IMG/VR virus record: IMGVR_UViG_2537561936_000014
Location: 1 to 44,077 of that record
Origin: a virus
Taxonomy: Duplodnaviria > Heunggongvirae > Uroviricota > Caudoviricetes
Reading direction: 5' to 3' (one strand)
DNA length: 44,077 bases
Shown here: one piece after another, positions 14,155 to 20,100 of the stretch
Layout: each line of letters starts with the position of its first letter
Numbering within the stretch: position 1 is the stretch's first letter
Program-made: the position numbers

Positions 14155-17100
14155 ACCCGCTCCAGCATTTGAAACAAGCCTTATTGTATTGCGGCACTGG
14201 CGTATTTTTTATTACGTGGGGGCAGGTTGTTTTGAAAAAGCATTCTGTTCTCTGGCTATGATTTGAGGCCAGGTGTAGCCTCAGTGCTGATTTTTTTACG
14301 ACAGCAGAATGGTGCATTATCGGTGGAGATTTTGTATTTCCTGGCAGGGTAGGTGATGCATCATTCTGGTGTTGTAAATCGCACCAAAGAGGCGCACCTC
14401 AGTGCGAGGGTGGTTTAAAGAGTCGGTTTAGCGGGAAACCACAGTATCCATACAGCACGGAATACTTCGGGAGACACCCGACGCCTCGGTTTAATAACAA
14501 TTAAAAAAAATCATCCCTTGCATTGACCAACCGCCATATCTGGCGGTTTTTTTTATTCCTTTCTCAGGACGAAAAAAGACACGAGCATCCAGGAATACTC
14601 GTGGGACAACGTCCTTTGGATAGCAATTTGCGAGAGGGTGAAAAGTAGCGCGGTCGTCGGATTAAGACCGCGGGACAAAGTCCATGAAGAATAATAAGTA
14701 TTGGCCCCCTTCCGGGGACATGTTCATACTACCAAGATTCAGAAGTGGTTTAAATCCTCAAATTAACCTTAATTTCCGATAAGTCTTATTTCATTTCTTT
14801 GCGCCACATCTGGAGCTCATCAAATAACGCCACGCAAAGGGCGTCTGCGGATGCCGGTGCTTTTGACGGGGTGTTTTTTACGGGCCGCTGGTGGCCCTTT
14901 TTTTATTTACAGGAGAAAAAAGTATGTCTGAACCCTTATCCGGTTCCGGCACGGCTGCGGCGCTCGGCGGGGCGACGGTGTACGGGCTGTTTACCGGGAC
15001 GGATTTCGGGATTGTGTTTGGTGCGTTCGCCGGGGCGTTATTTGTGGCAACGATGCCGCAGGCGCTTTCAGCCTGGCGTGTGGCGGCGCATTTTCTGGTG
15101 TCGTTCATTATCGGCGTGCTGGGGGCAGAGGTTCTGGCGTCCTGGCTGGTAAAGCATACAGGGTTTGACGGTGCACCTGTCGACGCACTGTGTGCAGTGC
15201 TGGTGTCAGTGGTGTCGGTGAAGATTCTGTCGTTCATCCACCAGCAGGATATTGCATCACTGGTGTCCGGTGTGTTCTCCCGCCTGCGGGGCGGAGGAGG
15301 CGGCAATGTTAAGTAACCTTCCCGGATTGCTGAATGTGGCGTTATGCACGGTTATCGTGCTGACGCTCTTTTTTTATCGTCGTCGTGACTCCAGACACAA
15401 ACCGCTGATGTCATGGCTGGCCTGGCTGCTGATGCTGCTGTATGCCTTTACGCCCCTCAGCTATCTGTGTGGTCGCCCGTTAGCGGCGAACTGGCTGGCG
15501 GTGGGGCTTAATCTGCTGTTCTGCGTGCTGGTGATACGTGCACGCGGGAACGTTTCAAAAATCCTTTCATTCCGGAGGTGAGCATGTCGGGTAAATTCAG
15601 ATTCAGTCGTCGCAGTGAAAAAAATCTGGGGGGCGTCAAACCACAGCTGGTTGCTGTCGTTCGCCGTGCCCTTGAGCTGACGGAGGTTGATTTCGGTATT
15701 ACGGAAGGCCTGCGCAGCAAGTATCGCCAGAAACAGCTGGTTGCAGAAGGTAAGAGCCAGACCATGAACAGCCGCCACCTGACCGGTGATGCGGTGGATG
15801 TTGTGGCCTACGTTGGCAGCCAGGTGTCATGGGACTGGCCTCTGTACGAGAAAATCGCACAGGCATTTAAGCAGGCTGCCGCAGAGCTGGGAGTCGCCAT
15901 CGAATGGGGCGGGGACTGGAAAACGCTGAAGGACGGGCCGCACTTCCAATTGAAACGCTGATAGCCGGGTGAGTTATGAGTCGAAAGCACTGGACACACA
16001 GAACGCCGCGAACTGCGGCGAAATGGGCACTGGTAGCGATACTGGTGCCTTTTTTATTGGTGGGATGCGTCAGCCTGGATAAGGCGCGCCAGCTTTTCGA
16101 TACGGCTTCTCAGGTCTGTGAAATTGTCGACGGTGTTCGGCAGTGCCTGCAGAACTGATCTCCTGTAAGGGCAGAATATTTCGCTGAAAAATGAAAGGGC
16201 GCCATTGTCCAAGAGGCATGAAATTCTGTTATCTAATCTGGTTGATATATGAATGTGGGGGATGCTCTTCTCCCCCACTGAAGGTTAGCCTACCTTACGG
16301 TATGGATACACATTTTTAATGAATTGGTGAAAATACTGGCCTTTTGAACTGGCATTCATAAGACCCTGATAGATCCTGGATGGAACACCAGAGTATTGAT
16401 AGATACCTCCATTGTGAAAGGCTATTTCCAGTGTGAGAGTTGCTGAATCATACCCAACTGACTGGAGATTTGATGATGAAACATAATTACGAATCAAAAC
16501 AATATCCTCATATTGCGGGGAAAAGTCCCAATGAAATTATTGATATATTTCGGCGTTATAACTTTGTCGATGATCATGGTCATCGTCTTGAAATGTGCCA
16601 GGACTTCATTGACTTAGTTAATGCGAAATCACAACAACATCAGGATGGTTAGGCATTACAGCAGCTCTTCTGTGAGGGGCTGCGATAATGCCAAAGCTCG
16701 TCATCGGCACCCGCCGCGCACCCAGCGCACTGGCCGATAGCGGGCTTTTTTATTCATAAAGCGAGGCTGTATGAGCGAGAAATTTTTATGCGTCCATCCG
16801 TAAGGGCAGAGCGAAAGGTGAAGCCGAGCTACGGGCGGCATTGTTTAAGCTTGCCAGAAAAGGGGATGCCTTTGCCCTGCGCGAACTACTCAGGGTGGAT
16901 AAAAATCAGGACTAACTGATGAGCAGACCGGACTGGGGGGCGTTGCAGCAGGAGTATATTGCTGAATACACCCGCTCCGGTATATCTCCGGTGGCATGGT
17001 GTGAAGCAAGGGGACTGAATTACGCAACGGCCCGTCGTTACATCAAAAAACCTCCGAAAAATGCGCAGACAGAAATGCGCAAAACTGCGCAAAAAAGTGC

Positions 17101-20100
17101 GCAGAAAAAATCTGCGCAGACTGCGCAAAAGCAGAACGGAAAATCTCAGAAAAAAAAGCCAGTATCCGATGCGTGCCTGAATAAGGGCGACACGGAGGAA
17201 TTTTCGTTCTGTCCCGATGAATTCGGCATCTCAGAGCAGCAGACGAAATTTGCGATGCTGGTTGCACAGGGGAGAAAACTCGTTGAGGCATATCGCCTGG
17301 CAGGATACGAGTCAGAGGGGAATGCGGCCTACGTCACTGCCAGCCAGCTCCTAAGAAATCCTAAGGTTTATCGGGCTATCTCATGGTTCCGCAATCAGTA
17401 CCAGAAACGCTATACCGCAGACCTAGATTTACTGGTGAGTCAGTTGATGGCCATTGTCCAGGCCGACCCCAATCAGTTGGCACAATTTCGCCGTGTTAAC
17501 TGCCGTTATTGCTGGGGCGAGAATCATCTCTACCAGTGGCGTGATATTGCAGAATTCGATAAGGCAGCAGCACAGGCCTCCAGAGATGGCAAACCCGAGC
17601 CGGAATATGGAGGCCTCGGCTTTGTTGATAACGCCATACCCAATCCGGATTGTCCGAAGTGCTGCGGTGAGGGAACGGGACAGCTTTATATGGCTGATAC
17701 CACTCTGCTTGATGGGGATGCGCGACAATTATATGCAGGGGCAAAGCTCGGGAAATTTGGTGTTGAGATCCTGCTGGAGGATAAGGCTGCCGCCCGGCGC
17801 GAACTTATCAAGCTGATAATGGCGACGAAAGGAGGTTCTGCTAGTGGTGCAACTGACAGTCGCAATGATCTGGAGCTTGAAGGACTGAGGCTTCGCAACG
17901 AAAAGCTGCGCACTGAGATTGAAAACCTCAAAAAAGGCGTGGGTGGTGAGAATAACGAAATAATTATCCACAACTCTCTGCCGATGCCGGGAGTGGATAA
18001 TGTCGATTGAAATCTACCTCCCAAAACCTCATGAGGGGCAAATAGCTGCATGGACGGCGGCAATAGAGGAACGCTTCCACGCGGTATGCTGTGGTCGTCG
18101 CTGGGGTAAAACGGTGATGCTGGTGAACATCGCTACCAGTTTCGCTACGCGGAAATTTGCCGTTCCTACCACCGGGCAACTTATCGCGGGTAGGGTGGGG
18201 ATTTTTACCGCTCAATACCGCCAGTACCAGGAAATCTGGGATGAAATTAGCGCCGTTCTGCAACCGCTGATCCTCAGTCAGTCAAAAAATGAAAAGCGCA
18301 TCATTCTCCGTAATGGGGGGCGCATCGACTTTTGGGTAACGGACAATAACAAACTGGCCGGGCGTGGGCGTAAATATCACGCTGTGCTGATTGATGAGGC
18401 CGCATTCACTAAATCGCCGGAAATGCTCGAGGAAATCTGGCCCCGAGCGATACGCCCGACGCTTGTCGATTACCGCGGCTGTGCGTGGGTATTTTCCACA
18501 CCAAACGGTATCGACGAGAGCAATTTTTTCTACGCGATATGCCACGATGAATCCCTGGGATTTGTCATGCACCATGCGCCAACTTCATCGAATCCGTATA
18601 TTCCGAAAGAAGAACTGGAGGAAACGGAGAAAAAATCCGATCCGCGCGTCTGGCAGCAGGAATATCTTGCAGAGTTCGTAGACTGGTCCAAAGACGCGTT
18701 ACTCGATGTCGATAAGCTGCTGGTGGACGGTCAACCAATTGAGATGCCGCCGTACTGCGACATGATTTTCGCAGTGATGGATACGGCGCTGAAAGGCGGG
18801 ACCGAAAATGATGGTACTGGCGTGGTGTATTTCTCTTATGAGTCAACGTATTCGGACGAGCCAAAACTGACGATTATTGACTGGGATGTGACGCAAATTA
18901 AAGCGTCATTGCTTCCTGAATATATCCCCGGCGTTTATGACAACCTCGAGCGCCTCGCGAAATTATGCCGTCCGCGTCTGGGCAGTCAGGGAATTTTTAT
19001 GGAAGACGCCGCGATGGGGGCAATCCTCAACCAGAAGGCGGAAACCGAAGGCTGGGATATGACGCCGATTAAATCGACACTAACCAGCAAGGGCAAAGAC
19101 GAACGGGCGGTGATGGCATCCAGCTACCACTATCAGGGGATGTGCAAAATCGTCCGGGAGGCTTACGACAAGACCGTTTCATTCAAACGTACCACCGCAA
19201 ACCCCCTCATTAAACAAATCGCCGGGTTCCACCTGGCAGACAAAGACGCGCATAAACGTGCTGATGACCTTTTCGATTGTTATACCTATGGATTGATCAT
19301 CGCACACGGTAATTACGCGGCGTTGTAAAAAATCAGGATATTTTTGATGGCAGAGATCGAGATTACTGGCGGCCTCGGTTCAGCACTGATGCATATTCTT
19401 GAGGCTGAAGAAATTAAGCCGGGAACCGACACTGGCTATGAATTGTGTAAGCAGCTGTGGCAATTCCATCCTCTGGGCGGAAAACTTGTCGAAAAACCCA
19501 TACTGATGGCAATGTGTAAGCCGCGCCAGTATAACGTGGAGACAGATCCTGACGAGCGGGTTGTGCGGCGTTTTCAGGAGGTATGGGAACGTATGAAGGT
19601 CAACGAGAAGATTAAAAATCTGTTTTTTCTGTCTCGTTGCTACGGTGCCGCAGCGATCGGCGTGGGCACCGACAGCGTTCCATGTCGTGAACCGCTTCCG
19701 ACGTTCGGACTGACAGAAGATGACGTGTATATCAACGCGTGGGACCCGTTGAACGCTTCCGGTTCGATGGTGACTGACCAGAACCCCAACAGCCCGTTTT
19801 TCCAGGAAGCCAATAAAAAAATGAAGATTGGTGGGAAAGACTGGCATCCGTCACGCACACTGAAAATCTTCAACGGCACACCGATTTATCTGGAGTTTCA
19901 GAGTTCATCGTTCGGATTCACCGGACGAAGTGTGTTTCAGCGCGTTCTTTATTCCCTGAAATCCTATATCAACACGATGGAGGCGAATGATCTCGTCAGC
20001 CAGAAGGCAGGCGTACTGGTGGCTAAAGTTGTGCAGAACGGTTCGAAACTTGACGGGATCATGGCTGCCGCCACGGGACGAAAAAGGGAAAATGTCAAAG

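What the first reader, a model, noticed from the sequence alone, without database searches (positions are those of the whole stretch)
17062..17127. Six TGCGCA repeats inside the small terminase gene: candidate pac or terminase-binding array
The repeats recur at roughly one helical turn across about 65 bp inside the gene for the protein that recognises packaging sites. In several headful-packaging phages the pac site lies within the small terminase gene, so this array may be a DNA signal as well as coding sequence.
Basis: partly seen in the sequence, partly recalled or inferred. Interest (0 to 1): 0.5.

Follow-up and report, generated by a model that had tools for sequence, protein, structure and literature searches.

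The report
P1-like packaging-site repeats inside terminase gene
Six copies of the DNA word TGCGCA inside a prophage's small-terminase gene are conserved as DNA rather than as protein code. They are most likely the site where the phage's packaging enzyme recognises its own genome, a new-specificity version of the classic phage P1 pac site.

Summary
Six exact TGCGCA lie at 17062-17127 inside terS (16919-18010), against about 0.1 expected.

The repeats are a DNA-level signal, not only a protein repeat:
- One copy is read in a different frame from the other five.
- In 36 species-level homologues, the Ala codon inside the hexamer is GCG 90% of the time, against 26% elsewhere in the gene.
- The preceding third base is T 94% of the time, while the base just after the hexamer varies freely.
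- 35 of 36 genes carry hexamers in at least two frames.

The array always sits just downstream of a 45-residue N-terminal three-helix domain. That domain is homologous to the N-terminus of phage P1 PacA (hhalign 93.7%, E 2e-7). P1's experimentally proven pac site is an array of TGATCA hexamers at the same place in pacA.

The repeat word changes together with the N-domain: TGCGCA, TGCGAAT(TCGCA), TCGCGAA, GATCAT in Stx phages, and TGATCA. One natural swap changes both domain and array on a core that is almost identical over its C-terminal 200 residues.

Best reading: a P1-type pac or terminase-recognition array with a new, Dam-independent specificity. Binding, cleavage and virion ends are untested.

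The parts
17062..17127 (.). Array of six palindromic TGCGCA hexamers, starting at 17062, 17076, 17086, 17098, 17113 and 17122, separated by A-rich spacers. Proposed terminase-recognition (pac) element.
   Evidence: Exact matches. Enrichment P about 1e-9. Five copies in frame xxT-GCG-CAR and one out of frame. The array is kept at the same gene position in 31 species-level loci. Spacers are 20/30 A.
17076..17091 (.). Conserved 16-mer TGCGCAAAACTGCGCA: two hexamers 10 bp apart, encoding (M/V)-R-K-T-A-Q, so the first hexamer is out of frame with the second.
   Evidence: The same 16-mer is present in the E. coli-lineage loci and in Aeromonas phage phiARM81mr. L032 and L033 have hexamers at the same 10-bp spacing and frames.
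16919..17053 (+). Coding region for the N-terminal 45-residue three-helix (helix-turn-helix-like) PacA-type domain of TerS, ending in ...GLNYATARRYIKK. Proposed reader of the hexamers.
   Evidence: hhalign of 14 family members against P1 PacA residues 1-64: probability 93.7%, E 1.9e-7, 38 columns. AlphaFold2 single-sequence model has pLDDT 83 with helices at 6-20, 24-31 and 35-41. The top structural neighbours are all HTH DNA-binding domains, but none is significant. There are sub-threshold hits to transposase HTH models.
17054..17212 (+). Coding region for the Lys/Gln/Ala-rich linker (residues 46-98) between the N-domain and the TerS core. The array is embedded in its first half.
   Evidence: pLDDT falls from 54 to 36-44 across residues 51-100 of the full-length model. 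Linker length and sequence vary between homologues, including gain or loss of whole repeat units.
17213..18010 (+). TerS core: a Terminase_2-type domain with an inserted four-cysteine motif and a C-terminal tail.
   Evidence: Pfam PF03592 matches residues 123-311. CRYC...CPKC is invariant in alignment A2. The C-terminal 200 residues of the core are almost identical in L124, which carries a different N-module and array.
18000..19328 (+). Large terminase subunit (TerL), overlapping the end of terS. The presumed nuclease/motor recruited to the array.
   Evidence: Pfam Terminase_6N, 23.5 bits against a cut-off of 22; PHROG 2, E 1e-35. No similarity to P1 PacB by BLASTP.
19344..20783 (+). Portal protein, the next gene of the packaging module.
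   Evidence: Pfam Phage_portal_3, E 2e-12; PHROG 146, E 1e-73.

Best explanation
The six TGCGCA hexamers are the recognition part of this prophage's packaging site (pac), or at least its small-terminase loading site. They are built on the same plan as the phage P1 pac site.

Proposed mechanism:
- TerS carries an extra N-terminal PacA-type helix-turn-helix domain on a long flexible basic linker.
- Several such domains from one TerS oligomer bind the clustered hexamers, which lie in the DNA that encodes that same linker.
- The TerS-DNA complex recruits TerL, which cuts nearby and starts headful packaging, presumably towards terL and the head genes.

Status of each step:
- Shown here: the repeats are selected at the DNA level, they are always linked to the PacA-type domain, and the repeat word changes when that domain changes.
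- Inferred: Unlike P1, the hexamer has no GATC, so Dam methylation control is not expected. This lineage also has one cluster rather than two clusters flanking an IHF site.
For: (1) DNA-level selection.
- In 36 one-per-species genes, Ala in linker Ala-Gln pairs is GCG in 132/147, against 167/638 in the rest of the gene.
- The preceding codon ends in T in 138/147, against 23% T at third positions in general.
- The Gln third base, just outside the hexamer, is free (CAG 68, CAA 79).
- 35/36 genes carry hexamers in at least two reading frames (larger set).
- Klebsiella phage 5 LV-2017 (42% protein identity) has six copies in all three frames.

(2) Position. In 31 species-level loci, 128 hexamers fall in the bin covering nt 120-179 of the gene, against 0-5 per 60-bp bin in the roughly 6 kb of flanks.

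(3) Homology to a proven system.
- The N-domain profile matches P1 PacA residues 3-40 (hhalign 93.7%, E 1.9e-7).
- In P1 the annotated pac cleavage sites (pacA nt 276-285) lie between four TGATCA at nt 194-233 and three hexamers at nt 324-352, just downstream of the homologous domain.
- Synonymous recoding of the P1 hexamers lowers P1 phage titre about 9-fold (PMC10028697).

(4) Co-variation of N-domain and repeat word.
- ...TARRYIKK/L goes with TGCGCA.
- ...TAKRYIKI/V goes with TGCGAAT or TGCGAATTCGCA.
- ...TAKNHITIK goes with TCGCGAA.
- ...TARTRIKM (Stx phages) goes with GATCAT.
- ...TGRRYLQV goes with TGATCA.
- Each array is enriched over its own locus.

(5) Natural module swap. L124 has a TerS core that is almost identical to the window's over the C-terminal 200 residues, but a different N-domain and a different array. 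The array therefore tracks the N-domain, not the core.

(6) Portability. The N-domain plus array is fused to at least four different TerS cores: Terminase_2, Sf6_terminase, cores without a Pfam match, and PacA.
Against: - No experiment or read-coverage data for this phage or any close relative. No mapped virion ends were found in the papers on related phages.
- Within the E. coli lineage single hexamers do decay (TGTGCA, TGCGTA, TGCACA, TGCGCG, TACGCA). Many loci keep only four or five intact copies, so no individual copy is essential, and some carriers may be defective prophages.
- P1 PacA shares the ...TARRY... motif with the TGCGCA class yet reads TGATCA, so the specificity determinants are not understood.
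- P1's bipartite layout and IHF site are absent here.
- TerL is unrelated to PacB at the BLASTP level.
- The co-variation rests on a handful of independent lineages.
- The Stx-phage array is a plain in-frame 12-bp tandem repeat, so DNA-level evidence for that class is weak.
Confidence: 0.65

Rival explanations
1. The hexamers are bound by TerS, or by another phage or host protein, but not to start packaging. They might serve autoregulation of terS expression, nucleation of TerS oligomers, or some other cis function. The true cleavage or recognition signal would lie elsewhere.
For: The comparative data show DNA-level selection and linkage to the N-domain, but they say nothing about cleavage. 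The array lies inside the gene it could regulate. This lineage lacks the second hexamer cluster and the IHF site that frame the cut in P1.
Against: In the one homologous system that has been tested (P1), the hexamers are the pac recognition elements. The cassette is found at the 5' end of small-terminase genes with several different cores. That fits a packaging-specificity role better than a gene-specific regulatory one.
Confidence: 0.15
2. The repeats are a by-product of a low-complexity, slippage-prone protein linker (A-Q-K repeats). The DNA identity only reflects recent duplication of a roughly 12-bp unit.
For: Copy number changes by whole units between near-identical proteins. The linker is predicted disordered. 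The Stx-phage version is a clean in-frame 12-bp tandem repeat.
Against: The spacers differ in length (9-15 bp) and sequence while the hexamer is exact. The hexamer is kept in three reading frames, encoding A-Q, (M/L/V)-R and C-A. Synonymous sites inside the hexamer are fixed (GCG 90%, preceding T 94%) while the adjacent synonymous site is free. The pattern persists at about 40% protein identity, far beyond the reach of recent duplication.
Confidence: 0.05
3. The array acts through nucleic-acid secondary structure. Either the self-complementary hexamers pair in the terS mRNA, for example to pause translation between domains, or hairpins followed by T-runs on the opposite strand act as terminators of antisense transcription.
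For: The RNA fold of 17040-17150 has z = -5.5, and the Klebsiella homologue has z = -3.2. The minus strand gives four terminator-like hits against 1.0 +/- 1.0 in shuffles.
Against: Any set of copies of a G+C-rich palindrome gives such scores. The predicted pairing partners differ between lineages. A structural constraint would allow arm pairs of arbitrary sequence and compensatory change, yet every copy in an array is the same word and decayed copies are not compensated. Odd copy numbers (5, 7) are common. Other classes (TGCGAAT, TGATCA) are not followed by T-runs. None of this explains the co-variation with the N-domain.
Confidence: 0.05

Closest known systems
Phage P1 pac site and PacA (161-162 bp pac inside pacA; seven TGATCA/G hexamers, HEX4 and HEX3, flanking an IHF site and the cut)
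   Same: - The N-terminal HTH domain of the small subunit is homologous.
- A cluster of palindromic hexamers with irregular 7-15 bp spacing lies in the coding DNA just downstream of that domain and is read in more than one frame.
- Some relatives with the window-type N-domain even carry the P1 word TGATCA (L138, L139).
- A sister lineage (Klebsiella/Enterobacter) has a second cluster of two or three hexamers about 150-200 bp downstream, giving a bipartite layout like P1.
   Different: - The word is TGCGCA, which has no GATC, so Dam control is not expected.
- This lineage has a single cluster of six.
- No IHF consensus lies nearby.
- The TerS core is Terminase_2-type with a four-cysteine insert, not PacA-like.
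- TerL is not PacB-like.
- The host element is a Rac-like lambdoid prophage with a contractile tail, not a P1-type plasmid prophage.
- Function here is untested.
pac sites inside terS of other headful phages (P22 gene 3, SPP1 gene 1 pacL/pacC/pacR, Sf6)
   Same: The recognition site is embedded in, or overlaps, the small-terminase gene. This keeps the recogniser and its target genetically linked. TerS recognises and TerL cuts nearby (general knowledge; review PMC13595956).
   Different: Those sites are single asymmetric sequences (P22) or boxes bound by the canonical TerS DNA-binding domain (SPP1), to my knowledge. They are not arrays of one palindromic hexamer read by an extra N-terminal domain. 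No sequence similarity was tested or claimed.
Phage lambda cosB R-elements bound by the gpNu1 winged HTH
   Same: Several short repeats next to the cut site are bound by the N-terminal HTH of the small terminase subunit (general knowledge).
   Different: Lambda uses cos (unit-length) packaging. The repeats lie upstream of Nu1 rather than in coding DNA, are 16-bp elements, and depend on IHF. The TerL type is different.

Membership tests
P1-type pac site (hexamer array in the small-terminase gene read by a PacA-type subunit) | Cluster of several copies of one hexanucleotide within the 5' part of the small-terminase gene | tested here: met
   Six TGCGCA lie at nt 144-209 of terS. P1 has TGATCA at nt 194-233 and hexamers at nt 324-352 of pacA.
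P1-type pac site (hexamer array in the small-terminase gene read by a PacA-type subunit) | Small subunit carries the PacA N-terminal helix-turn-helix domain | tested here: met
   hhalign probability 93.7%, E 1.9e-7 over 38 of 45 columns. Pairwise BLASTP E 0.005. The model is a three-helix bundle with pLDDT 83. No curated Pfam or NCBIfam model reaches threshold.
P1-type pac site (hexamer array in the small-terminase gene read by a PacA-type subunit) | Two hexamer clusters flanking an IHF site and the cleavage site | tested here: not met
   The window has a single cluster. The next exact copy is 780 bp away. There is no IHF consensus within the gene. A second cluster exists only in the Klebsiella/Enterobacter lineage.
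P1-type pac site (hexamer array in the small-terminase gene read by a PacA-type subunit) | Hexamers contain GATC, and cleavage is controlled by Dam methylation | tested here: not met
   TGCGCA has no GATC. The Stx-phage class (GATCAT) and the L138/L139 class (TGATCA) do contain it.
P1-type pac site (hexamer array in the small-terminase gene read by a PacA-type subunit) | Hexamers are required for terminase binding, pac cleavage and packaging | not testable with these tools
   Needs virion-end mapping, synonymous recoding and gel shifts. For P1, see PMC10028697.
P1-type pac site (hexamer array in the small-terminase gene read by a PacA-type subunit) | PacB-type large subunit as partner | tested here: not met
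   BLASTP of the window TerL against PacB gives a best E of 1.4.
Terminase_2 (PF03592) small terminase subunits | Match to the Pfam model above its gathering score | tested here: met
   38.6 bits against a cut-off of 26.1, residues 123-311. PHROG 51, E 2e-69.
Headful (pac-type) packaging phages | Large terminase of a headful-type clade; circularly permuted, terminally redundant virion DNA | tested here: inconclusive
   TerL matches Terminase_6N only just above its cut-off (23.5 against 22 bits). Its phage relatives (PdC23, Chronis, RothC/D, vB_YenM) have no mapped ends in the papers read. Virion DNA structure is not testable here.

The most novel reading that the evidence does not exclude
A portable 'specificity cassette' defines the packaging sites of a large family of enterobacterial and related phages. 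It consists of a PacA-type HTH domain plus its own binding-site array, written into the DNA that encodes the domain's flexible linker.

- At least five word specificities exist: TGCGCA, TGCGAAT, TCGCGAA, GATCAT and TGATCA.
- The cassette is shuffled as a unit between unrelated TerS cores.
- About 16% of complete E. coli genomes carry this window's version, and the medically important Stx2 phages carry another.

If true, pac sites, and hence the start points of lateral and generalized transduction, could be read directly from sequence for this family.
Probability: 0.55. Interest if true: 0.75.

Novelty: new variant of a known kind. Interest (0 to 1): 0.6.

Why it matters
Pac sites are known for only a handful of headful phages and are hard to predict. 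As recently as 2024 the ES18 pac site was still described as unknown (PMC11260489).

- **A sequence rule.** A PacA-type N-domain followed by an array of one short word would predict the packaging start for a prophage family present in 882 of 5426 complete E. coli genomes. The same rule gives predictions for Klebsiella, Yersinia and Aeromonas phages and for Stx-converting phages.
- **Transduction.** The predicted start tells which host genes next to such prophages are exposed to lateral transduction.
- **Engineering.** It gives a short element for building packageable plasmids, or packaging-deficient helper prophages by synonymous recoding, as was done for P1.
- **Dual coding.** It is also a clear natural case: a cis-acting DNA signal placed in the least constrained part of a protein, open in all three frames.

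Tried and rejected
- **Literature.** Searches for TGCGCA with terminase, for pac-site repeats with terS and HTH, for PacA with hexanucleotide, and for Stx phage pac sites found no description of this array or of the family rule. The P1 genome paper, under the PMC id I guessed, was not held.
- **Papers on related phages.** The papers on the Yersinia vB_YenM phages and on Klebsiella phage Chronis give no mapped ends.
- **GenBank record start points.** Those of the related phages follow gene boundaries (terL start, or upstream of terS) and say nothing about pac.
- **IHF.** The consensus scan found nothing near the array.
- **Full-length TerS model.** The AlphaFold2 single-sequence model was poor outside the N-domain (pLDDT 44). 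Only window proteins and homologous-protein hits may be submitted, and those hits are all at least 91% identical, so no deep alignment was available.
- **Foldseek.** The N-domain search against the PDB gave no significant hit (best E 0.7). All top hits are HTH domains, which is used only as weak support.
- **Solved structures.** Sequence searches for TerS and TerL found nothing.
- **TerL against PacB.** No similarity.
- **RNA folding.** The strongly negative z-scores were judged a trivial consequence of repeated palindromes.
- **E. coli CUWW10.** A truncated match that looked like a module junction is an IS1 insertion.
- **Restriction site.** TGCGCA is, from memory, the FspI site. This was considered and dropped because it does not explain the clustering, the fixed position or the co-variation.
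Full report
**1. The observation**

The stretch 17062-17127 contains six exact copies of the palindrome TGCGCA, starting at 17062, 17076, 17086, 17098, 17113 and 17122.
- The other 44 kb of the window hold 22 copies, so about 0.1 is expected in the 190-bp interval tested (Poisson P about 1e-9).
- No other 100-bp stretch approaches this density, even with one mismatch allowed.
- The spacings are 14, 10, 12, 15 and 9 bp (mean 12).
- The spacers are A-rich (20 of 30 bases).

The array lies in the ORF 16919-18010. This ORF is a small terminase (Pfam Terminase_2, PHROG 51). It is followed by the large terminase (18000-19328) and the portal (19344-20783).

The window as a whole is a complete-looking Rac-like lambdoid prophage with a contractile tail. 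It has an integrase, a RecE-type exonuclease, CII, O, a DnaC-like loader, Q, two tRNAs, an endolysin, head genes, a sheath and a baseplate.

**2. A DNA signal, not merely a protein repeat**

In the window, five copies are read xxT-GCG-CAR. They give Ala-Gln preceded by Asn, Thr, Ser, Ser and Thr, each with a codon ending in T. The copy at 17076 is read aTG-CGC-Aaa (Met-Arg-Lys).

Klebsiella phage 5 LV-2017 has a TerS only 42% identical. It carries six TGCGCA at the same place in all three frames: TAQ, TAQ, PAQ, LRT, TAQ and CAE.

A scan of one genome per species returned 42 loci across Enterobacterales. Every intact gene whose N-terminus ends in ...ARRYIKK carries three to eight TGCGCA starting near nt 138-150 of the gene. 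Pooled over 31 of these loci, 128 hexamers fall in the bin covering nt 120-179. Elsewhere in about 6 kb of flanks the count is 0-5 per 60-bp bin.

Codon statistics on 36 one-per-species genes:

| Site | In linker Ala-Gln pairs | Comparison |
|---|---|---|
| Ala codon (inside hexamer) | GCG 132/147 (90%) | GCG 167/638 (26%) in the rest of the gene |
| Third base of preceding codon (inside hexamer) | T 138/147 (94%) | T 23% at third positions generally |
| Gln third base (first base outside hexamer) | CAG 68, CAA 79 | unconstrained |

Further points:
- 35 of 36 genes have hexamers in at least two frames.
- The larger, more redundant set gives the same picture.
- All three frames of the array are open and encode Lys/Arg/Gln/Ala-rich peptides. 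Natural variants exist in which part of the array is read in another frame (P0139, P0247).

Within the close E. coli lineage the array is not frozen.
- Eighty loci give 27 variants with four to six intact copies (one swapped-module locus, L124, has none).
- Single copies decay (TGTGCA, TGCGTA, TGCACA, TGCGCG, TACGCA).
- Whole units are gained or lost.
- Individual copies are therefore dispensable; the cluster is what is kept.

**3. What the array is attached to**

The array always begins 10-30 nt after the coding region for a 45-residue N-terminal domain (MSRPDWGALQQEYIAEYTRSGISPVAWCEARGLNYATARRYIKK).
- AlphaFold2 on the single sequence gives a confident three-helix bundle: pLDDT 83, helices at 6-20, 24-31 and 35-41.
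- Confidence then falls through residues 51-100 (pLDDT 54, then 36-44). This is the linker, and the array encodes its first half.
- Structural neighbours in the PDB are all HTH DNA-binding domains (DeoR, IstA transposase, Aca1, Fis), but none is statistically significant for so small a domain.
- Curated libraries give only sub-threshold transposase-type HTH hits.

A profile of 14 family members aligns with residues 3-40 of phage P1 PacA at 93.7% probability, E 1.9e-7. The shared motif is LN-x-x-TARRY.

An all-against-library HMMER search finds 196 clusters (at 50% identity) with this domain. The domain is fused to different TerS cores:
- Terminase_2 (window, Klebsiella and Yersinia phages);
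- Sf6_terminase (P0209);
- cores without a Pfam match (Stx phages, RothC, phiARM81mr, GER2);
- the PacA body.

**4. The P1 parallel**

In the P1 record, pacA has TGATCA at nt 194, 201, 213 and 228. It has an IHF site at nt 256-268, the annotated pac cuts at nt 276-285, and TGATCG/TGATCA at nt 324, 336 and 347.
- The arrays again lie just downstream of the homologous domain.
- Spacing is again irregular (7-15 bp).
- The hexamers again fall in more than one frame.
- The P1 hexamers are the accepted recognition elements of pac. Recoding them synonymously lowers P1 phage titre about 9-fold (PMC10028697; also PMC11260489).

**5. Co-variation of domain and word**

| End of N-domain | Repeat word | Examples |
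|---|---|---|
| ...TARRYIKK/L | TGCGCA | window, Klebsiella, PHB10, Aeromonas phiARM81mr (7 copies), GER2 (5 copies) |
| ...TAKRYIKI/V | TGCGAAT, often as the 12-bp palindrome TGCGAATTCGCA | Yersinia vB_YenM, Klebsiella RothC, five genome loci |
| ...TARTRIKM | four GATCAT | VT2-Sakai/933W-type Stx phages |
| ...TGRRYLQV | six or seven TGATCA (the P1 word), in two frames | L138, L139 |
| ...TAKNHITIK | three TCGCGAA(TTCG) | L124 |

Each array is enriched over its own locus.

The most telling case is L124. Its TerS core is almost identical to the window's over the C-terminal 200 residues, but its first 100 residues or so are different. The array therefore follows the N-domain, not the core or the rest of the packaging module.

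Two caveats apply. These are few independent lineages. P1 itself shares TARRY with the TGCGCA class, so the residues that set specificity are unknown.

**6. Mechanism proposed**

- TerS oligomers present several tethered PacA-type HTH domains.
- These bind the clustered hexamers. The long flexible linker would tolerate the irregular spacing.
- The complex recruits TerL to cut nearby and begin headful packaging.
- Placing the sites in the DNA that encodes the least constrained part of the protein keeps reader and target within 200 bp. They are then inherited and exchanged together.

DNA-level selection, linkage and co-variation are shown here. Binding, cleavage, cut position and direction are inferred from P1 and from general terminase biology (review PMC13595956).

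Differences from P1:
- no GATC, so no Dam control;
- a single cluster and no IHF consensus;
- a different TerS core and an unrelated TerL.

The Klebsiella/Enterobacter lineage does have a second cluster of two or three hexamers at nt 348-398. That gives a bipartite layout like P1.

**7. Rivals**

- **Slippage-generated protein repeat.** The frame and codon statistics argue against this.
- **RNA or antisense-terminator structure.** The fold z-scores (-5.5 and -3.2) and four terminator-like hits on the minus strand are what any array of a G+C-rich palindrome with A-rich spacers would give. They do not explain one word per array, uncompensated decay, or co-variation with the N-domain.
- **Binding without packaging.** TerS or another protein could bind for a purpose other than packaging initiation. 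This cannot be excluded without experiments and is the main rival.

**8. Novelty and value**

The P1 pac architecture is classic. I found no description of the TGCGCA array, of the other word classes, or of the domain-plus-array cassette as a family rule. The library searched is incomplete.

I rate it a new variant of a known kind: the same plan, with a new Dam-independent specificity, a different layout, and different terminase bodies.

The 5' part of this terS occurs in 882 of 5426 complete E. coli genomes, and the Stx phages carry a sister cassette. A sequence-readable pac site would therefore be useful for predicting transduction and for engineering.

Noticed in passing
window 17062-17129, minus strand: The array scores as four intrinsic-terminator-like hairpins (TGCGCA-loop-TGCGCA followed by a T-run), against 1.0 +/- 1.0 in shuffles. 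This is probably a by-product of palindromes plus A-rich spacers, but antisense termination was not excluded.
   Followed up: partly
L003, L013, L016, L018, L020, L024, L026, L035 and others, nt 348-398 of terS: The Klebsiella/Enterobacter lineage has a second cluster of two or three TGCGCA about 150-200 bp downstream of the main array. This gives a bipartite layout like HEX4/HEX3 of P1 pac. It is absent from the window's lineage.
   Followed up: partly
L132:1201-2007 (VT2-Sakai) and about 200 Stx-phage records: The small terminase of 933W/Sakai-type Stx phages has the same N-domain followed by four GATCAT (Dam sites) at exact 12-bp spacing, encoding (I/T)DH(E/K/D) repeats. This is a candidate P1-like, methylation-sensitive pac element in Stx phages.
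   Followed up: partly
L001:1412-2440 (Escherichia phage Rac-SA53): The ORF annotated 'gpOterS; fusion of two genes by deletion' joins an N-terminus that resembles the window's endolysin N-terminus to terS. The junction lies between hexamers 1 and 2. The HTH domain is lost and only two intact TGCGCA remain.
   Followed up: partly
window 17501-17512 and 17651-17662 (TerS residues 195-198 and 245-248): A four-cysteine motif, CRYC...(46 residues)...CPKC, is inserted in the Terminase_2 core. It is invariant between the E. coli and Klebsiella lineages and is possibly a zinc ribbon. It is not a feature I know from characterised small terminases.
   Followed up: no
window 14011-14164: tRNA-Thr (TGT) and tRNA-Gly (TCC) genes lie between the Q antiterminator gene and the lysis genes.
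   Followed up: no
L135 (E. coli CUWW10, NZ_CP182145.1 1978354-1979211): An IS1A insertion or deletion truncates terS exactly at the first hexamer (nt 144). The downstream head genes are missing.
   Followed up: yes
proteins P0143, P0195, P0229, P0237, P0246, P0266, P0269: Some library proteins contain four to seven tandem copies of a domain related to the TerS N-domain. The N-domain also has sub-threshold similarity to IS66 TnpA, and PacA's has sub-threshold similarity to IS21/IS3 transposase HTH models. This hints at a transposase-type origin.
   Followed up: no
window 16285-16497 (minus strand) and 16700-16918: A 70-residue ORF lies on the opposite strand between the lysis genes and terS. 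It is followed by a roughly 220-bp stretch without a clean ORF. That stretch starts with a G+C-rich hairpin plus a T-run near 16708-16755 and contains a short 'MSEKFL' start (about 16772) resembling the start of the Rac-SA53 fused ORF.
   Followed up: no
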